NCBI GenBank assembly: GCA_964016885.1
Contig: OZ024757.1
Location: 16,368,001-16,432,000, forward strand
Direction: 5' to 3'
Origin: Eledone cirrhosa
Lineage: Eukaryota
Length of the DNA stretch: 64,000 nt
Below are positions 1-55,399 of this stretch, piece after piece. A program made the position numbers and the translations under genes. A model generated the notes under the pieces. It was given only the letters and a program-made list of their open reading frames with translations. It did no database searches and was not told the DNA's origin. Positions within the stretch are counted from its first letter, which is position 1. Every line of letters begins with the position of its first letter.

Positions 1-383
1 GATATTAACAAATGGAAACTATATTTATAAAACCATATTTATTTCATTATACATATTTCAAGGACACGAAGTTAAATTATGGTGTGCTTTCATCAGATAA
101 AATATAATATAGAGCAGTTTTATAAATAAATATTGACATACCCTTAAAGAATGCAACCATTACTGTTGGAAGCTCTCGGATAGTGGAGTTATATCTTTAA
201 TTATACTATTAGGTAAGTTAGTATTGGATATTTAAAAAAAATATAAATACTATTGGATATTTTTCTTAAATATCCAATACTAACTTACCTCCACTATCCG
301 GGGGCTTCCAACAGTAATGGTTGCATTCTTTAAGGGTATGTCAATATTTATTTATAAAACTGCTCTATATTATATTTTATATC

Positions 384-537: not shown

Positions 538-628
538 TGACTCTTTTCCTATTACCCACTCTACTACTCATAGTATCGGGTACTGTGGTGTTTTATGGTC
601 CACCTGGTTCCTTACCACATTTCCTTCG

Positions 629-632
<4 letters not shown>
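538..632 (+). mobile_element. Fragment of family F3 tail (CCTATTACCCACTCTACTAC...CCTTACCACATTTC)
   Basis: Similar to 6637-6722, 7722-7750 (minus) and 34477-34525 (minus); sits between (TA)n tracts. Confidence 0.7.
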
Positions 633-682
<50 letters not shown>

Positions 683-685
<3 letters not shown>

Positions 686-919
686 GGAGGTGAGTTTTAT
701 TGTAGTACAATAAAGCAATGCAGATATCGGATAAGAAGCACTCTACAGTTGATATGTTGATATGTTGATTTATAACTGCACTATTCACAAGTGTTTTTTA
801 ACCTTCATATCATGTCTTCCTATTTTATCTGATGAAAACACAAATGTTATTGCATGATGATACTTGTTTTTGAAATGTGCATAATAAAATACATGGAACT
901 CTTTTAACCATCTTTTGAT

Positions 920-5392: not shown

Positions 5393-5447
5393 AGTGCAAT
5401 TACTTATGAAATTTAAGTGTTACGATATTACTATTATTAAGGTTTGT

Positions 5448-5635
5448 AGGTTGGCGGTATCGGTAGAGGGGTCGGACGCCATGCTTTGACGCATAGAGTT
5501 ACGGCCCTTGCCATTCTGAATTCAAATCCAGCCGAGGTTAACTTTGCCTTTCGTCCTTACGGGGTCAATAAAATAAAGTACCAGTAATGTACTAGTTAAT
5601 TGCTGGTCTTGTGCCAAAAGTAGAAACAATTATTA
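5448..5635 (+). mobile_element. tRNA-derived SINE family S1
   Basis: A-box-like TGGCGGTATCGG, B-box-like ATTCAAATCC, body TTTGCCTTTC..GGGGTC.ATAAAATAAAGTACCAG; about 10 copies in the window. Confidence 0.85.
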
Positions 5636-6343: not shown

Positions 6344-6530
6344 CAAGGTCTAGCAAATAGAGAAAATGTTTTAAAATACATTTTTTAAAATTCTCAGTAC
6401 TTACTATATGTGCCTTTACCGCGGTTTCATGCTCCAGAATAAACGGAAAATCCAAGCGGATTTCCATATATATATATATATATATATGCACACAACACAC
6501 ACGTATATATACACATATATATATATATAT

Positions 6531-6720
6531 AGGAACGAGTAGGATCCCGACGGCTGAGCTCAAGCCGTTTCGACGGCTAATTCTGGACAGAATTAGCCGT
6601 CGAGACGGCTTGAGCTCAACCGTCGAGATCCTACTGGTTCCTATTACCCACTCTACTACCCTAAGTATTGAGTACTTTGGTGCGTTATGGTCCATCTGGT
6701 TCCTTACCACATTTCTTTCG

Positions 6721-6722
<2 letters not shown>
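6531..6722. mobile_element. Family F3 element with GC-rich 112-bp palindrome
   Basis: 6531-6642 is a near-perfect hairpin followed by the F3 tail; (TA)n flanks. Confidence 0.75.
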
Positions 6723-6778
<56 letters not shown>

Positions 6779-19344: not shown

Positions 19345-19436
<92 letters not shown>

Positions 19437-19475
19437 GATATTAACAAATGGAAACTATATTTATAAAACCATATT

Positions 19476-19540
19476 TATTTCATTATACATATTTCAAGGA
19501 CACCAAGTTAAATTATGGTGTCCTTTCATCAGATAAAATA
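19476..19540 (-). ncRNA. Type I hammerhead ribozyme (F1)
   Basis: Reverse complement of the HHR at 19688-19752. Confidence 0.85.
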
Positions 19541-19687
19541 TAATATAGAGCAGTTTTATAAATAAATATTAACATACCCTTAAAGAATGCAACCTTAACT
19601 TTTGGAAGCTCCCGGGTAGCTTCCAACAGTAATGGTTGCATTCTTTAAGGGTATGTCAATATTTATTTATAAAACTGCTCTATATTA

Positions 19688-19752
19688 TATTTTATCTGAT
19701 GAAAGGACACCATAATTTAACTTGGTGTCCTTGAAATATGTATAATGAAATA
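19688..19752 (+). ncRNA. Type I hammerhead ribozyme (F1)
   Basis: TATTTTAT-CTGATGA-AAGGACACCA..TGGTGTCCTT-GAAA-TATGTA-TA/ATGAAATA; perfect 10-bp stem II. Confidence 0.88.
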
Positions 19753-20204
19753 AATATGGTTTTATAAATATAGTTTCCATTTGTTAATATCGTATGTTTA
19801 CTCCAATAATTTGTTGAGTACTTTATATCAGTTACAAAAATATTTTCTTGTTGTATCCCAACAATTTAAATAGAACTTCTACATATATATATAATTATAT
19901 ATATAAATGAAAGGTATATAATTATATATATATCGTATATAATTATATATATCGTATATAATTATATATATATATATATATATCGTGTTTGACATGAGAG
20001 GTTCTGAAGGGAAGAGAAACATGGTGATCTCTAATGTCAACGCCGCCATACATGGTTATATATTCGACAGTGAGACGCAGGAGTTACTAAAGAAATACGC
20101 CATTGATATTTTCTCTTTCATTCGCAGCATGATTGCCACCACATCACTGAGGTGTGTGATGATAGAAAGGCTATCTAAGATTGATAGATATATCGTTGTT
20201 GTTG

Positions 20205-34476: not shown

Positions 34477-35083
34477 GAGTACTCAATGCTTAGGGTAGTA
34501 GAGTGGGTAATAGGAAAAGAGTCACGACCCCGGCGGCTGAGGTCCGGCCGTTTCGACAGCTAGATCTGAAGTTTGACTAATGAATCATCAGTCGACCTTC
34601 AGACACCCGGACAGACGATCGTCCTCGAAGCTCACGAGCCACGTATGATCCCTCAAGGACATAGGCGTAAATTACTCCATCCAATGGAAAGTCATTACTA
34701 AGTTTAAGCCATAGGTAAATGGAAATTCGTCTTGTGGGCTGTGCGTTGAAGAAAGGATCAATATCCTGTGAGGTTTACGCAATAGCGCTTGTCTGAATTC
34801 AAGGAAAGAACTTTTTTCACGTTGTCCAAACGTATGGAAACACTTATTACATAATTACAAAGCTCCATAACTTGGATAATTTATTCCGAGCATCCACAAT
34901 GATATCCCCTACATCGATCTATTATGGGTTTACCTCCCCCAGGAGAAGTGACTGTTTCTACACATGCGAATTCGTACAGTTACGTATCGTTTTCCGTACA
35001 ACTTCATTTATACCGAGCTGATGACCCGAATAAGGTGCAACAATTGTTCTCGGTAATGGTGAATTAACTGTTGTGGAACTACT

Positions 35084-36096: not shown

Positions 36097-36289
36097 TTGA
36101 CATTGCACTCAGTGCTCCTTTGGGAGCCCCTACATGGACACACTAGAAGAGGAAGACCAAGGTTAACATATGTTGATGCCTTAAGGACAGACACTGGTCT
36201 GTTGGAGATGCAGGATATGGCAGCGATAATGAGGGACAGAGACCGCTGGAGAGAACTCGTCCATGGATCTCGGGAATTTTACCCGCCTT

Positions 36290-36291
<2 letters not shown>
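36097..36291 (+). mobile_element. 3' end of RTE-superclade LINE
   Basis: LHSVLLWEPLHGHTRRGRPRLTYVDALRTDTG; same family as 2207-2455; between (TA)n tracts. Confidence 0.85.
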
Positions 36292-36356
<65 letters not shown>

Positions 36357-36362
<6 letters not shown>

Positions 36363-38105
36363 TACTACTCAGAGCTGTCCAACCATAGAGCCACAGAAGG
36401 TCCAGAAGTACTGAAAGTCCCTCCAGCAACCAAAAACGACAACTACCCCATCCTTCGCGAAGAAGTGGAAGCAGCTGTGAAATCGCTCAAGAAGGGGAAG
36501 TCTGCAGAAGTGGATATCTTAGCGGAGCTGGTGCGGGCTGGGGGAGCAGCACTGATAAGCGCCCTACTGACCATCGGCAACAAGATCTGGCAGACAGGGA
36601 AATGACTAACAACATGTCACTTATCATCACCCTCCTCAAGAAAGCAACCTACAATGATGCCAATATTATGGTACCATCAGCCTCATCAGCCATCCAAGGA
36701 AAGTCTGAAGCCGCAAGCAGAAAAAAATTGTCATTGAAGAGCAAGCAGGCTTCCGACCAGGGCGAAGCGCAACAGAGCCGATCTTTCAACCTGAGGAGAA
36801 TATGCGAAAGGTACTTCCAACATCAACAGGACCTCTTCCACGTCTTCGTGGACTTCAAGAAGGCGTTCGGCGTAGTTTGGCACACAGTATTGTAGGCCAC
36901 AATGAAGCTGTACAACATCAATGGTAACTTGATCAGGATGTCCTCAGTGCTGGACTAACCTATAAACACCAACGAGGAAGCCTAATTTTTTAAAATATAT
37001 TTATCATTAGTTTTTATTCACTAAATCAATGAATGTTCTGGAAATTGCTGTCGAAACGTCAAAAGCTCAGCCATCGGGTGCTGACTCTCTACAATTGATC
37101 AGGCTGATACGGAGCCTATATTGCAAAGCCACCAGCGCAGTCTATTTAAACAACAACGTTGGGGACTGGTTCAGCACCACAGCTGGAGTACGACAAGGCT
37201 GTTTGCTCTCTCCAACTCTCTGCAACATCGTCTTAGAGAGAATTATGACAGGCGCACTGGAATACTATGAAAGGACAGACATCATTGGCCGAAAGACTAT
37301 GAACTTGCGTTTTGCCAACAACATAGATAGTCTATCAGGGAAGGAAGAGGGGCTAGCCAACTTAGTGGAACATCTTAACAAGACTCCTACCTCCTATGTC
37401 ATGCAGATCAGTGCAGAAAAGACGAAAGTGATGACCAACAGCACCAACGGCATCAACACTGACATCAGGGTCAACGACGAGAAACTAGAGTGCGTCAGCA
37501 GTTTTTTCAAATACTTGGGGGCACTCATTTCAGATGAAGGGTCTAAACCTCGCTAGATCTGCCCAGACTAACGCAGCACTTCAAAACTTAAAACAACCTG
37601 GAATGACAAAAATTTAGTCCTCAGCTCAAAGATCAGACTGATGCACTCTCTGGTCATGTCCATATTCTTGTATTCCTGTGAGTCTTGGTCAATAACAGCA
37701 GATCTGGAGAGAAGAATACAGGCTACGGAGATGAGATGACTCAGAAATTCCTTGGCATCACCTACAGAGACCGCATATCCAATGAGGAGGTGCGACACAG
37801 AATTTGGCAAGCCATCGGGCCCTCCAAAGACCTGCTGAACATTGTAAAAAAACACAAATTGAGATGGTCCGGGCACGCGACAAGATCTTCAGGGATTGCC
37901 AAGACTTTCCTGCAGGGAACAGTACAAGGAGGAAGGAAGGGAGTCAGACAGAAAAAAATATGGGAGGACAACATTTCGGAATGGACAGGCATGAGGCTGG
38001 GTGCAACCATGTGGAGGACGAAGAGGCGAGAGGAATGGAAGGAGCTGGTTATCAGGTCATCTGTGGCGCCCCAACGGTCCACCAGACTACGGAACAGATG
38101 TGATG
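36357..38105 (+). pseudogene. Decayed RTE-clade LINE reverse transcriptase region and 3' end
   Basis: Motifs EEVEAAVKSLKKGKS, FVDFKKAF, GVRQGCLLSP, NLRFAN, FKYLGA, LRWSGH; several frameshifts and stops; 157-bp insertion. Confidence 0.92.
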
Positions 38106-38213
38106 ATATATATATATATATATTTATATACCAGGTATCACACCATATGAAATATAATTATAATACATATATCACATCATATCAAATAACATATTTCTTG
38201 TATGCCTGGACTC

Positions 38214-38762
38214 GTTCTTCTTCTTCGCCCACTTATTCCTGGGCGGGTCGTTGGGGCAGAGTCTTCAAACACTCCTTCAAGCGGGTCCTGTCAGAAGCAA
38301 CCATTTCCCACTGATACGGCTGAATCGCCAAGTGAAACTAGCCGAGCTCATGGATGTTAGCCCATGATCTTACTCGAGGTCTACTCCTGGGTCTCCTACT
38401 GGTTAGTTTTTTCCCATAAAATCCGTATTCAGCGATTCTTTCCTGCGACATTTTAACCACATGTCCACAATATCGGAGCTGTGATGTCTCAATTCGGAGA
38501 AGTAGCGGCTCAATCTGGAGAAACTCTCTGATCTCCGAGCTACGCACTCTATCGAGTAACGCGTTACTCCAAAGACTCTTGGAAGGAATCCCATTTCGGC
38601 CGCATGTATTCGTGATCGTATTATTTCAGTCATTACCCAAGATTCCTGACCATAGGTAAATGTTGGCACGAATACCGAATTGAAGATAGCGAGTTTGGCG
38701 TTTACACCTACCTCCCTTCTTCTGAGTACCGAATGTTGAATCTGGGGCATTAGTGCACCAGC
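38214..38762 (-). pseudogene. Decayed RTE (Rex3/Expander-like) LINE 3' fragment
   Basis: KLAIFNSVFVPTFTYGQESWVMTE..RIHAAEMGFL, IEPLLLRIETSQLRYCGHV; (GAA)n tail. Confidence 0.88.
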
Positions 38763-39389
38763 TCCTGGGTTTAAAACAAAAACTAAAATAAAATAAAACT
38801 GGAATATCAACAATCTCTATCAATATTCTCCTATTTAGTTATTCAGCCTTATTCCATTGATTTCCAAATCGAAACCTTTCAGCAAATTAAAGTATCGACA
38901 ATGTGGAGTGGGGAACAACAAATCGAAATAACATTAAAATCGAATGTTTAATGCTAACAATTTCTCTAGTTGATTGATACAATTTATGAAACCTGTCACT
39001 CAATATGGCGCATTATTTTTTATAAGATGTGTAGGATAAGGAGGGAAAAATCTTTCAATTTAAAGAGGAAATCGCTGACAGCTTTAACCTGAAAACGTCA
39101 AATTTTATCAAATTTCACTTATAATTTGAAAGATGAAACAATTTTATAAGGATTCCTTGAGAAGAGATGAGGACAAGCCTGAATGTAGAATCGAAAGAAA
39201 GCGTGTGTGCTAGAGGTTGGACTGACACGGCCTGATTCGCGTAGGATATGTGAAAGCTATGGTTGTAAAGGGTTGGAGTTGGGGCTATAACGCGGATACT
39301 GTCATGATTTTGATGGACAGATGTATATATATGTATGTATATATGTCTGCATGTCTGCATATATGGGGATGCGTATATATATAGATACG

Positions 39390-40355: not shown

Positions 40356-42275
40356 GTGTGTATGCATGGTATCTAGACAGTATATTACATGGTGTTTATT
40401 AGGTATTATTAATAAATCAGGAGATTGCAGTAGGGAAAATATCTGCTTTGTTATTTATTGCCATATAATTAACAGTTTCGTAGTTGTTGATAGCGGATCA
40501 AACAACGTGTTACATGTCCAAACAAACATTGATTTGGCGGCCATTACGATTTTCTGATTATATAGTCGTAAGTCGTTGCATCCTATATCGAAATTCGATT
40601 GTCTATAAATATTGAGGTATTAGTGATTAGGTAGGAATGTGTGTATATATGTGTGTGTGTGTGTGTTTGTGAATGTATACACTCGTATGGATTCATATAT
40701 ATATACATATATACTAAAATATTGCCCGTATTTATTGCTACGTAAGTATCAATCGTAAGTTTTATATACTAATAAAATATACACTTATGTATATAAGTAG
40801 ATATATTATATATAATAGATAAATGAACGTCCGTTACTTACGACGATGAATATTCAAATTGTGAAACACAGCGCAACGGCCTACTCGTTCAATTAATCTG
40901 TAAGGGGCTGCGCTTTCCTCTGGGACGCGTACCTTTAACATATACCACGGGGAAATTCAGGGGAACAGTGCGAACATAAATATATATATATATGTGTAAT
41001 CTTAATATTCGAGGTCTGTGTGTAATCTGCTGGCTGGACCGGATTGTAAATAGACCAATGACAAGGTGTTGATAAATATCTAAGTTCAAAATACAAAGAT
41101 TGTCGCGTAAGCATGATAAATATATTTCAAGGAGACAACCCTAACGGTTGTCTTGTTTTCAATCTACATTTTCGATATTTTTTTTTTTTTTTGTCTTTAC
41201 TGGACCTTTTTTCTATTTCTCCATTGTGATCCTGTCTCTATTTTGTACTCCTGAAGAAGGGCTTAAGCCCAATACGTCAAACTGTCTTCCCTCTTTCGAA
41301 TATAAAACGTGAAACTAAGAAGACGTGTTGTTGTCACCTTGAACTATATATATATATATATATATATAAACACCATTTATATGAGGCTGTTTACCAAGGG
41401 GAAGAACTGGTGGATCCGGTTGGAATACGATGATGCACTAATTTAATTAAAGCACTCAACGTTATGCAAATCATTAAAAACTCATTAAAAACAACAGAAA
41501 GCCGGACTGGAAATTTACTTTACAATTTTAATTCCGTGAAAGTACTATACATATTTCGATGACCCAGACTTTTCATCTGATCATTATGCAAGATTTAGAC
41601 GATTTCATCAGGTGTTAATTGCGGAATTAGTTCCAAAAGACAACAGGATTACGTCAAACACAAACAGAGAATAGAAAATAGAAAGTAGAGGATCAATTCA
41701 ATTCGGTGACAGCCTTCCAGTGTTGTAGTTGTGTCAGACGATCCCCGAATATATATATATATGTCTTACTCAAAAGGTTAACGTACCACCCGGTCCTGGA
41801 ATCGAACTCGCAACCTCACGAATGTGAATCCTATTCTCTAACCAATAAGCGACGCATGTTTACATGTTATACCATCTATTGCTCCAAACATATTAGCTGG
41901 CTTCAGGAATTCGTTGGTGTTTTAATCAGGCCTTCCTTAGACAGACATATACAACCACAAATACTGCAGACGTAGATTAACTCAATCTACATCTAGAATT
42001 GTGTGAAATATGTGGCATATTTTATATATACATTCATACATACATACATAAACACACATGCATATATACATACATTCATACAAACAAACATGTATGCACG
42101 CATAGATGCATACACACGCAGGAATACTTACATGCGTTTATTCATTCATACATACATGAATACATACATACTCGTATACACACACACACACACACACACA
42201 CACGTACACATAGACTTTGCTTACGTATAGCGTATCTATTTGAATAGTAGTTTTACTGTTTTCAACTAAAAACAC

Positions 42276-43732: not shown

Positions 43733-44012
43733 CAATGATATTAAATAAATGGAAACTATATTTATAAAACCATATTTATTCTATTATATATATTTCAAGG
43801 GTACCAAAAACTTTGGTACGCTTTCATCAGATAAAATACAAAGAGTATTTTATAAATTTTGACATAGCCAAGGAAACTATACCTTATCAGTTGAATTTTT
43901 CTTGGTAGTTTAATATCATTGAATATTTACTCCAGAAAACTGTCGAGTGCTCTTAATCAGTTATAAACATTGATATTTGTTGTATTTCCAACAAATTAAA
44001 TATCCCTTCTAC
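43733..44012. mobile_element. F1 element copy 4 (inverted HHR segment plus forward tail)
   Basis: 43737-43860 resembles 1-135; 43909-44012 resembles 19783-19882; 13-bp inverted overlap. Confidence 0.8.
43777..43838 (-). ncRNA. Type I hammerhead ribozyme (F1 subfamily)
   Basis: TATTTTAT-CTGATGA-AAGCGTACCAAA..TTTGGTACCCTT-GAAA-TATATA-TA/ATAGAATA. Confidence 0.85.
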
Positions 44013-44949
44013 TTATATATATATATATATATATTTATTGAACTAAACAACCCTATCTCGGTACAGATTTCAGTGTAAATGAAATGGCTTGGAAATTAAT
44101 TATCTCCCCAGCTAGAAATCTTCGCACTCGAGAATAAAGCATTAAGCACTTTTTATCCTCTCGTTATATTTTATGATTTTCGACAATAATGCAACGTAAT
44201 ATAAATAGCAACAATAGAGGAAATTTTCAGTTAACTGTTAAATATGAAGTATTTGATCCTATACATTTGAAATATGTTTAATGTAAACTGTAGTGTAGAT
44301 ATAAAATGTCCTAAATAAACCTGTACGAACATTCTATGAGATTCCATTATAATTTATACTATTTTTATACACATATAGCCTCTATTCCATATAATAATAC
44401 ACTGGATTATTTTAGGTGCAAAGCCTAAGTATATATACAATCATATATATCAATGTATATATTGTATATTTATATATATTTGTGTATGTTCTTCTGCTAT
44501 AATTATTTAATTTATTTCATGTTCTGCTATAATTATTTAATTTATTTCATGCCAATTGAAGGAGCTACTTTATAACAAGGTACGAGGGTATTATTATTCT
44601 TTCATTTGTGTGTAAACACCAACTATGTATATATATCTATGTATGTGTGTGTATGTGTGTGTGTGTATGTGTGTGTGTGTGTGTGTGCGTGTGTGTGTGT
44701 GTGTGCGTGCGTGTGTATGGATATATGTGTATATATATATATATTTATATATGTCTGTATATCTGTACGTACTTACGTACGTATGTATGTATTTATGTAG
44801 GTGTGTATGTATCTATGTATATACGTATGTATGTATGTATGTATGAACGAATGAATGTGTGTGTGTGGGTGTGTGGGTGGGTGTGTGTGTGTGATTGTGT
44901 GATTGTGTGCAGGTATGAGTGTCATTGCATGTGTGGATCTGTGTTTTGC

Positions 44950-48099: not shown

Positions 48100-48161
<62 letters not shown>

Positions 48162-48228
48162 AAGGTTTAGCAAATAATGAAAAAGTTTCAAAATAAATTT
48201 TAAAAAATTGACTTTACCTACTATAGTT

Positions 48229-48311
48229 ACCTTTACCGATCGGTTTCGAATCCCAAAAATAAACGGAGACCATACGGCCTTCGTTGCAAAGAAAGATTCT
48301 CGTCAGAAGGT
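48229..48311 (-). ncRNA. Type I hammerhead ribozyme, array copy 1
   Basis: ACCTT-CTGACGA-GAATCTT..GGGATTC-GAAA-CCGATCGG-TA/AAGGT; intact core. Confidence 0.92.
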
Positions 48312-48713
48312 TCTTTTCATTCGAAGAATATAAAATTCTTGAATTTAAATTACGAACTAGCGCTATCCAAAACTGTTCCTGAGATGAGAGTGAATGAAGT
48401 GGAATCAATTTTTTCAAGGGCCGAAGTAAAGATAGAGGCAGAGGGAGGTAGGTCAAACCGGCCGCAACTATCACTAGCAGCAGTCGGAACGACCCAATTT
48501 GTCTCTCAACAATAGAGGAGAGTAGTAATAATAGGATATGTGTTCCTTCACGCACTAGGCGCTAAGGGACGCATGTATTGTCCAACCAAATGCCAATGTG
48601 GTTCAATGGCAGGTTAATAAATTAACGAGCCAGAACATATATAAACAAGGTTTAGCAAATAATGAAAAAGTTTCAAAATAAATTTTAAAAAATTGACTTT
48701 ACCTACTATAGTT

Positions 48714-48796
48714 ACCTTTACCGATCGGTTTCGAATCCCAAAAATAAACGGAGACCATACGGCCTTCGTTGCAAAGAAAGATTCTCGTCAGAAGGT
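48714..48796 (-). ncRNA. Type I hammerhead ribozyme, array copy 2
   Basis: Identical to copy 1, offset +485. Confidence 0.92.
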
Positions 48797-49198
48797 TCTT
48801 TTCATTCGAAGAATATAAAATTCTTGAATTTAAATTACGAACTAGCGCTATCCAAAACTGTTCCTGAGATGAGAGTGAATGAAGTGGAATCAATTTTTTC
48901 AAGGGCCGAAGTAAAGATAGAGGCAGAGGGAGGTAGGTCAAACCGGCCGCAACTATCACTAGCAGCAGTCGGAACGACCCAATTTGTCTCTCAACAATAG
49001 AGGAGAGTAGTAATAATAGGATATGTGTTCCTTCACGCACAAGGCGCTAAGGGACGCATGTATTGTCCAACCAAATGCCAATGTGGTTCAATGGCAGGTT
49101 AATAAATTAACGAGCCAGAACATATATAAACAAGGTTTAGCAAATAATGAAAAAGTTTCAAAATAAATTTTAAAAAATTGACTTTACCTACTATAGTT

Positions 49199-49281
49199 AC
49201 CTTTACCGATCGGTTTCGAATCCCAAAAATAAACGGAGACCATACGGCCTTCGTTGCAAAGAAAGATTCTCGTCAGAAGGT
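49199..49281 (-). ncRNA. Type I hammerhead ribozyme, array copy 3
   Basis: Identical, offset +970. Confidence 0.92.
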
Positions 49282-49683
49282 TCTTTTCATTCGAAGAATA
49301 TAAAATTCTTGAATTTAAATTACGAACTAGCGCTATCCAAAACTGTTCCTGAGATGAGAGTGAATGAAGTGGAATCAATTTTTTCAAGGGCCGAAGTAAA
49401 GATAGAGGCAGAGGGAGGTAGGTCAAACCGGCCGCAACTATCACTAGCAGCAGTCGGAACGACCCAATTTGTCTCTCAACAATAGAGGAGAGTAGTAATA
49501 ATAGGATATGTGTTCCTTCACGCACTAGGCGCTAAGGGACGCATGTATTGTCCAACCAAATGCCAATGTGGTTCAATGGCAGGTTAATAAATTAACGAGC
49601 CAGAACATATATAAACAAGGTTTAGCAAATAATGAAAAAGTTTCAAAATAAATTTTAAAAAATTGACTTTACCTACTATAGTT

Positions 49684-49766
49684 ACCTTTACCGATCGGTT
49701 TCGAATCCCAAAAATAAACGGAGACCATACGGCCTTCGTTGCAAAGAAAGATTCTCGTCAGAAGGT
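49684..49766 (-). ncRNA. Type I hammerhead ribozyme, array copy 4
   Basis: Identical, offset +1455. Confidence 0.92.
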
Positions 49767-49876
49767 TCTTTTCATTCGAAGAATATAAAATTCTTGAATT
49801 TAAATTACGAACTAGCGCTATCCAAAACTGTTCCTGAGATGAGAGTGAATGAAGTGGAATCAATTTTTTCAAGGGC

Positions 49877-49916
<40 letters not shown>

Positions 49917-55054: not shown

Positions 55055-55399
55055 AAGTTAAATAAAAGTCAAATGATTAAAATTTGACTCCAGTTCCTCA
55101 GTAAATTAACAACCCAACAAGGAACTGGGCATATCAGAGTATTGACAATATTATACACCTAAACAACATATGTACTTGTCTATACCATACTAATTCAAAC
55201 TGCCTGAAGAGGTCACAGCCAAAGATGGCTGTCACTGAAATATATATAGCAGTAATAAACGAAGCTAAATTTTAATCATTTGACTTTTATTTAACTTTAT
55301 TTTACACTACTCCGGAGTAACCAAACCAACCTGCGCACTTCGTCGAGTGCTCCAGCCTGCATACTGAGGTGTTGGTATACAACCAACATAAACTCAAAA

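What the first reader, a model, noticed from the sequence alone, without database searches (positions are those of the whole stretch)
19436..19882. F1 family: hammerheads with compensatory changes across four diverged copies
Seen: HHRs at 40-104 (-), 821-891 (+), 19476-19540 (-), 19688-19752 (+) and 43777-43838 (-) share the core and the TATTTTAT stem I arm. Stem II differs yet still pairs (GGACACCA/TGGTGTCC, GTACCAAA/TTTGGTAC, ACAA/TTGT). Stem III varies while staying near-palindromic (ATATGTAT, ATGTGCAT, ATATATAT), and the stem I partner alternates A/G against U. Inference: structure was under selection during element evolution, so the folds were functional.
Basis: partly seen in the sequence, partly recalled or inferred. 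Interest (0 to 1): 0.7.

Follow-up and report, generated by a model that had tools for sequence, protein, structure and literature searches.

The report
Hammerhead ribozyme ends of Penelope-like retroelements
These are hammerhead-shaped RNA motifs in a high-copy jumping repeat whose paired letters change together, which is a known trait of Penelope-like retroelements; the unusual detail is one unpaired C-C spot kept in almost all copies, and self-cutting is predicted, not shown.

Summary
The five type I hammerhead motifs are real (5 strict matches, 0 in 100 shuffles), and family-wide reads support selection on the fold: 0 of 12 core positions vary, against 11 of 17 unpaired ones, and the variable stem II positions come as four partner pairs. 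19476 and 19688 are identical arms of one palindrome, and 40-104 differs from them only by two non-compensatory changes, so there are three independent variants. The quoted GGACACCA helix is atypical: about 93% of reads carry a C-C mismatch at stem II pair 4, also present in two dissimilar hammerheads in the window. F1 bears Penelope-like insertion marks: (TA)n target, head-to-head arms, a one-sided 90-nt tail, and a bulged hairpin also seen in published Hydra-clade consensus sequences. Selection likely acted on source elements; this locus would fold into a 178-bp hairpin that hides the ribozyme. Covarying hammerheads in Penelope-like elements are published (2014). This scan noted the mismatch, the hairpin and the two-armed insertion before, on other DNA of this genome. 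No protein-coding partner, expression or cleavage was shown.

The parts
19436..19613 (-). Arm B: 5'-truncated sense copy of the F1 end, joined to (TA)n at end 1; holds the hammerhead 19476-19540 (predicted cut at 19484)
19610..19618 (.). Head-to-head junction of the two arms, symmetry axis at 19614
19615..19792 (+). Arm C: second sense copy, same extent, 4 differences from arm B (19627, 19631, 19633, 19657); both arms share the rare G at 19706
19688..19752 (+). Type I hammerhead: stem I 19688-95/19745-52, core 19696-702, stem II 19703-32, GAA 19733-35, palindromic stem III 19736-43, predicted cut after AUA at 19744
19665..19769 (+). Extended stem I (11 + 5 + 8 pairs) with a variable internal loop (19676-81) and a variable bulge (19687)
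19706..19729 (+). Stem II pair 4 (19706/19729): C-C mismatch in about 93% of family reads; G-C in this copy
19793..19882 (+). One-sided 90-nt tail, ending CTTCTAC at end 2, then AT-rich repeat
19800..19821 (+). Bulged tail hairpin ACTC-stem-loop-stem-TT-GAGTAC, 8 nt past end 1
1..183 (-). Copy A, cut by the window edge; hammerhead 40-104 with the C-C mismatch and one private pair break
294..380 (+). Inverted second arm of copy A, stopping at the first base of the core
682..916 (+). Copy E: inverted tail (about 682-775) then a diverged sense end with hammerhead 821-891 (C-U at pair 4; predicted cut after 883); flanked by (TA)n
43733..43901 (-). Copy D sense arm with hammerhead 43777-43838 (C-C at pair 4; predicted cut at 43785)
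43911..44013 (+). Copy D inverted arm: last 13 nt of the end plus the 90-nt tail with the hairpin at 43929
55199..55254 (+). Sequence-dissimilar hammerhead of the same class (C-C at pair 4, ATATATAT stem III, AUA site), tail-type hairpin at 55309
41545..41611 (-). Decayed hammerhead of the same class with long stem II and C-C at pair 4, in a (TA)n-flanked insert
   Evidence: model E 0.13 only

Best explanation
F1 is a high-copy short repeat in (TA)n that carries a type I hammerhead fold with covarying stems, and it is likely the hammerhead-bearing end of a Penelope-like retroelement, whose fold was likely kept by selection in the source elements rather than in these copies. Shown: the fold, its conservation pattern, the C-C mismatch, the head-to-head arms, the two fixed ends 90 nt apart and the hairpin 6-8 nt past the first end. 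Inferred, by analogy with published Penelope-like elements: a source element is transcribed with more than one hammerhead; two motifs swap their palindromic stem III and cut after AUA, perhaps with help from the element's protein; a Penelope-type endonuclease/reverse transcriptase nicks (TA)n on both strands and starts copying at two internal points of the RNA (end 1 and end 2); the two copies stop early and join head to head, leaving a palindrome with a tail on one side. The inserted copies then decay; the 19436 copy would fold into one long hairpin and would not act as a ribozyme if transcribed through. Whether the source RNA is a coding element or a small non-coding parasite is open.
For: Strict descriptor 5 vs 0 in 100 shuffles. 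Reads of two RAD libraries: variable positions (4% or more, 20 or more start places in both runs) are 0 of 12 core, 3 of 48 extended stem I (all keep a pair), 8 of 18 stem II, 1 of 6 stem III, 11 of 17 unpaired; Fisher p 4e-4 (core) and 4e-6 (stem I) against unpaired. The 8 stem II positions form 4 partner pairs out of 9 with the pair-restoring letters (1 in 126 if independent); three pairs have similar shares on both sides (0.20/0.15, 0.55/0.38, 0.57/0.55 in X13). With the 55204 motif added, 11 of 21 pairs change on both sides. Stem III changes on both sides at positions that pair only in the dimer (821 copy). Loose ends show the family joined to (TA)n at end 1 in 6445 and 7478 reads, and 13 of 15 listed joints are opposite-strand joints at differing places. 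Tail is 90 nt in both C and D, tails align (score 83 and 49, 0 of 1000 shuffles). Tail hairpin pattern: 6 sites vs 0.035 expected, and seen by eye in 3 of the 6 Hydra consensus sequences of PMC8557442. Inverted truncated copy, one-sided tail and (TA)n target are described for these elements; two internal start sites bounding the tail were shown in vitro for another clade.
Against: No reverse transcriptase or endonuclease remnant was found beside any copy or in the window, so the link to Penelope-like elements rests on shape alone. The tail is 90 nt, published tails are 30-40 nt. All 26 Hydra-clade rows of File S2 have stem III AC...GT, F1 has AT...AT (by eye). Reads give shares, not linkage; RAD reads are dominated by a few loci, the 3' side includes subfamilies whose 5' side did not align, and the four partner pairs may reflect only 2-4 events. 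The pair at 19703/19732 does not match in share (0.15/0.005). Rows dropped by the 20-start filter include one core change (19696 C>G, 146 of 1419 reads in X15) and two pair-breaking changes (19705, 19710). Only copy C folds better than shuffles (z -5.3; A -1.4, D -1.9, E +0.9); dimer stem III is weak (-2.2 to -6.0 kcal/mol). Most opposite-strand joints rest on 1-4 start places and could include library chimeras. Two of the 6 hairpin sites were used to write the pattern.
Confidence: 0.78

Rival explanations
1. F1 is a small non-coding retrozyme, about 275 nt, that is cut from tandem transcripts into monomers and circles by its own hammerhead and borrows a Penelope-type enzyme. This is a narrower version of the best explanation, not exclusive of it.
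For: No copy in the window is longer than about 450 bp or carries coding sequence. The sequence upstream of copy A resembles by eye the end of the tail, as a circle would give. Retrozymes derived from Penelope-like ends are proposed in 10.64898/2026.07.22.740005.
Against: No tandem F1 units in the window. The upstream-to-tail likeness is not significant in 6 of 6 comparisons (p 0.11-0.89), and the tail profile did not hit copy A. No joint from the tail end back to the start is among the 15 listed (14 more hidden).
Confidence: 0.4
2. The hammerhead shape is kept as a binding or folding module for the element's protein, and cutting is weak or dispensable.
For: PMC11167929: ribozyme mutants did not affect insertion in vitro and cutting needed the protein. 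PMC4209133: low in vitro activity. F1 has A-U at 10.1, an AUA site and a mismatch three pairs from the core.
Against: The catalytic letters are the ones conserved while N7 varies (19700 T>A), and stem III covaries as a dimer helix; both are what cutting would require.
Confidence: 0.2
3. The compensatory changes come from DNA-level correction of hairpins (template switching or conversion), with no selection on RNA.
For: The element is rich in palindromes; the G at 19706 that perfects stem II, and the clustered changes 19627-19633, may be such events.
Against: Correction would erase the C-C mismatch, yet it stays in about 93% of reads, in all 7 contigs listing it in a run of another organism label (X5), and in dissimilar families. 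It does not explain the conserved unpaired core (0 of 12 variable).
Confidence: 0.05
4. F1 is a foldback or miniature inverted-repeat DNA transposon and the motif is incidental.
For: The 19436-19792 locus is a near-perfect inverted repeat in a TA context.
Against: The inverted part differs in length between copies (178 bp, 13 bp, about none), the tail lies outside it on one side only, and junctions fall at many places.
Confidence: 0.02

Closest known systems
Type I hammerheads of animal Penelope-like elements with small palindromic helix III (Cervera and de la Pena 2014, PMC4209133; parts 1-2 of 4 read)
   Same: [quoted passage not shown]
   Different: No extra base between 9 and 10.1; A-U rather than G-C at 10.1; U-A at 15.2/16.2 with an AUA site; stem I extends to 24 pairs; fixed C-C mismatch at stem II pair 4.
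Hydra clade of C-terminal EN+ Penelope-like elements (Craig et al. 2021, PMC8557442; passages, section 11, supplement parts 2, 7, 52, 53 read)
   Same: (TA)n target, sense hammerhead near the 3' end, inverted truncated copy, and a bulged RCTC...GAGYRC hairpin seen by eye in Hydra-2_Amil, Hydra-2_Ajap and Hydra-1_Ajap.
   Different: No protein found for F1; stem III AT...AT against AC...GT in 26 of 26 listed rows; no C-C mismatch seen in those rows (the table lists helices as the descriptor found them); tail 90 nt against 30-40 nt.
Poseidon element of the green anole, PAc (Frangieh et al. 2024, PMC11167929; main text read)
   Same: Two fixed ends bounding a tail, AT-rich target, hammerhead upstream of the start sites, stem-loop near them.
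   Different: Other clade; there the start sites lie in the ORF start in an AC-rich stem-loop; shown by experiment there, inferred here.
Animal non-LTR retrozymes (PMC7229834, passages; 10.64898/2026.07.22.740005, parts 1-3 of 5)
   Same: Short, non-coding, type I hammerhead, two-pair stem III with a four-base palindromic loop.
   Different: F1 copies here are dispersed head-to-head inserts, not tandem arrays; circles not shown.

Membership tests
Type I hammerhead ribozyme | Conserved core CUGANGA / GAA / A15.1-U16.1 / H17 in type I order | tested here: met
   (0 of 12 core positions variable under the stated filter)
Type I hammerhead ribozyme | Three helices supported by variation | tested here: met
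   stem III as 2 pairs in a monomer or 8 in a dimer
Type I hammerhead ribozyme | Match to an Rfam hammerhead model | tested here: not met
   no family reaches its gathering score in the window; no hammerhead family among 11 matches up to E 10 in 19440-19890
Type I hammerhead ribozyme | Self-cleavage 3' of H17 | not testable with these tools
   needs a bench assay
Penelope-like element insertion | Inverted 5'-truncated copy next to a direct copy | tested here: met
   copies A, B/C, D; opposite-strand joints in reads
Penelope-like element insertion | One-sided tail (published 30-40 bp) | tested here: inconclusive
   one-sided tail present in 3 of 4 loci, but 90 nt long; copy A is cut by the window edge
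Penelope-like element insertion | RT plus GIY-YIG reading frame | tested here: not met
   motif scan of six frames found none in the window; rest of genome not held
Hydra clade | Insertion into (TA)n | tested here: met
Hydra clade | Protein marks (DKT, RWK, CxCX5C linker, no CCHH) and tree position | not testable with these tools
   no F1-linked protein available
Hydra clade | Hammerhead like the published rows (stem III AC...GT) | tested here: not met
   by eye, 26 of 26 rows differ from F1; so not filed as a member
Non-LTR retrozyme | At least two consecutive tandem units each with a hammerhead | tested here: not met
   none in the window; genome-wide not testable
Non-LTR retrozyme | Circular or circularly permuted monomer | tested here: inconclusive
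   p 0.11-0.89
Non-LTR retrozyme | Linear and circular RNA in tissue | not testable with these tools
   no RNA run was available to lay

The most novel reading that the evidence does not exclude
This lineage uses a distinct hammerhead subtype in which an unpaired C-C three pairs from the core replaces loop 2 as the contact with the long bulged stem I (or with the element's protein), gating cleavage, while the bulged hairpin in the tail sets where the reverse transcriptase starts; F1 would be a 270-nt template holding every cis signal needed for Penelope-type insertion.
Probability: 0.3. Interest if true: 0.62.

Novelty: new variant of a known kind. Interest (0 to 1): 0.33.

Why it matters
The headline claim, covarying hammerheads in a Penelope-type repeat, is published for many animals, so it surprises no specialist. 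What adds value is that the family shows which unpaired letters are kept: the C-C mismatch in stem II and the tail hairpin beside a fixed insertion end. The role of hammerheads in Penelope-like elements and the signal for their internal start of reverse transcription are open questions (PMC8557442, PMC11167929). F1 offers natural variants with and without the mismatch in a 270-nt sequence, so both become testable in vitro. I did not find the mismatch or the hairpin in print (searches; the library lacks most subscription papers, and bioRxiv supplements were closed).

Tried and rejected
Rfam: no gathering-level match; E-value matches were microsatellite hits to microRNA models. No whole genome is held, so no genome-wide alignment or R-scape run. 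Pattern scans of metagenome contigs (2 of 2) and viral contigs (1) found nothing. Coding remnants: six-frame translation of the copies and a motif scan of the window gave nothing convincing; a YWI..L-like stretch at 251 is too short to count. Circular monomer test not significant. Bacterial promoter scan is irrelevant here. The first arm comparison was off by one base and the stem I probabilities had an index error; replace them. A covariance model from six motifs found no new member in the window beyond 41544-41613 at E 0.13. Copy number from RAD reads (0.21-0.27% of reads) was rejected as an estimate because a subfamily seems to hold a restriction site inside stem II; 5960 matching contigs in X1 show only that variants are many. 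Look-ups of earlier findings by sequence, near and relatives were empty. An in-cis dimer of the 19476 and 19688 motifs was rejected: they lie on opposite strands.

Full report
Setting. The window is AT-rich animal-type DNA full of microsatellites and decayed repeats. No genome is held for it and I did not determine the organism. Evidence beyond the window comes from public DNA runs laid on the locus and from papers.

Observation. The five motifs are present as stated and read as type I hammerheads: stem I arm TATTTTAT, core CTGATGA, stem II, GAA, an 8-nt palindromic stem III, cut site AUA, stem I partner. A strict descriptor finds exactly these five, against none in 100 shuffles. Rfam does not detect them. 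The count of four diverged copies is too high. The motifs at 19476 and 19688 are identical arms of one palindrome. The motif at 40-104 differs from them at two positions, neither compensatory. Among the 4 distinct rows, 5 of 21 pairs change on both sides, 4 after removing one misaligned pair. That is suggestive but thin.

Family-wide test. About 26,000 and 34,000 RAD reads from two runs were laid on 19664-19772. Counting positions with a variant at 4% or more and at least 20 start places in both runs: core 0 of 12, extended stem I 3 of 48, stem II 8 of 18, stem III 1 of 6, unpaired 11 of 17. The three stem I changes all keep a pair. The eight stem II positions are exactly four partner pairs with the restoring letters (1 in 126 if independent), and three of the four have similar shares on both sides. 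Limits: the tool gives shares, not linkage; a few loci dominate the reads; 3' columns include subfamilies whose 5' side did not align; subfamily descent may reduce four pairs to two to four events. The filter dropped a core change at 19696 (4 and 12 starts), pair-breaking changes at 19705 and 19710, the N7 change at 19700 and rows at 19673 and 19714. With those limits, selection on the hammerhead fold is the best reading.

The conserved mismatch. Position 19706 is C, not G, in about 93% of reads, opposite an invariant C, and C in all contigs covering it in a run with another organism label. In the window, the 7 sites with a core and this kind of stem III have at pair 4: C-C four times (A, D, 55204, 41611), C-U once (E), and G-C only in the two identical arms. 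The 55204 motif has different stems yet the same mismatch. A defect kept while neighbouring pairs swap argues against simple hairpin correction in DNA and for a role, which is untested.

Anatomy of the element. The 19436-19882 locus is (TA)n, arm B (minus), arm C (plus), a 90-nt tail, then AT repeat. Copy D has one long arm and an inverted piece of 13 nt plus the same 90-nt tail; copy E has an inverted tail and a diverged arm. Reads show the family joined to (TA)n at the first end in thousands of reads and head-to-head joints at many places. Six to eight bases past the first end lies a bulged hairpin; its pattern occurs 6 times in the window against 0.035 expected, 4 of them outside the copies used to write it, and by eye in 3 of 6 published Hydra consensus sequences. 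An inverted truncated copy, a one-sided tail and (TA)n targeting are described for endonuclease-bearing Penelope-like elements, and the tail was shown to lie between two internal reverse-transcription start sites in the anole element.

Mechanism. Shown: fold, conservation, mismatch, two ends, hairpin position. Inferred: transcription of a source element, dimer-type cutting after AUA, nicking of (TA)n and copying from two start points by a Penelope-type enzyme, early stop and head-to-head joining. The shared rare G in both arms fits copying of both from one template, though later conversion would give the same, and the arms differ at 4 inner positions. A transcript through this locus is predicted to form a 178-bp hairpin (-267 kcal/mol), so this copy is unlikely to act as a ribozyme. 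Only copy C folds better than shuffles.

Comparison. It works like the hammerheads of Penelope-like elements and retrozymes. It is not filed in the Hydra clade, because no protein is linked and stem III differs from all 26 published rows, nor as a retrozyme, because tandem units are absent here and circular permutation is not significant. Covariation in such families is stated in PMC4209133. Papers seen: PMC4209133 parts 1-2 of 4; PMC8557442 passages, section 11 and supplement parts 2, 7, 52, 53 of 59; PMC11167929 main text; PMC7229834 and PMC3088659 passages; 10.64898/2026.07.22.740005 parts 1-3 of 5, supplements not seen. Searches for the mismatch and hairpin found no description.

Earlier notes of this scan. 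The mismatch, the tail hairpin and the two-armed insertion were noted on other pieces of this genome. I had recorded the mismatch and the tail architecture before seeing those notes; the hairpin lead came from them and was then tested. They are not independent support.

Verdict. Real, under selection as a family, and of a known kind; a variant through its fixed mismatch, AUA site and long stem I. Interest 0.33.

Noticed in passing
window 48152-49879 (-): Tandem array of 3.6 units of 485 bp, 99% identical, each with an intact type I hammerhead (10-nt palindromic stem III, long stem II), flanked by (TA)n: fits the published definition of a non-LTR retrozyme.
   Followed up: partly
window 55199-55345 (+): Second hammerhead family with the C-C mismatch and a tail-type hairpin about 55 nt downstream.
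   Followed up: partly
window 41370-41750 (-): (TA)n-flanked insert with a decayed long-stem-II hammerhead, C-C at pair 4, and the 3' half of the tail hairpin motif downstream.
   Followed up: partly
window 546-674, 6560-6766, 34478-34600: Another repeat family with the tail hairpin (6650) and a degenerate hammerhead-like core at 34591 (-); 6529-6644 is a head-to-head palindrome.
   Followed up: no
window 13842 (-), 23653 (+): Tail-hairpin pattern in short inserts beside (TA)n with no hammerhead seen next to them.
   Followed up: no
window 15378, 17115, 41251, 49972 (+): Further hammerhead-like cores; 15378 looks like a minimal form with a short stem III.
   Followed up: no
window 203-289: Inner palindrome between the two arms of copy A, with a 24-nt extra stretch in one arm and a splice-donor-like AGGTAAGT on the + strand.
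   Followed up: partly
window 36177-38314, 2160-2400, 38403-38816: Decayed LINE-type (RTE-like, by recall) reverse transcriptase fragments.
   Followed up: no
window 5440-5635 and about eight other places (14226, 16336, 16544, 16762, 23811, 27360, 31104, 46043): A dispersed short repeat family of about 190 bp, 85-94% identical, SINE-like.
   Followed up: no
reads laid on window 19716-19733: Loose ends in thousands of reads point to further F1 subfamilies with a longer stem II that also appear to keep C-C at pair 4; read by eye from 30-letter strings.
   Followed up: partly
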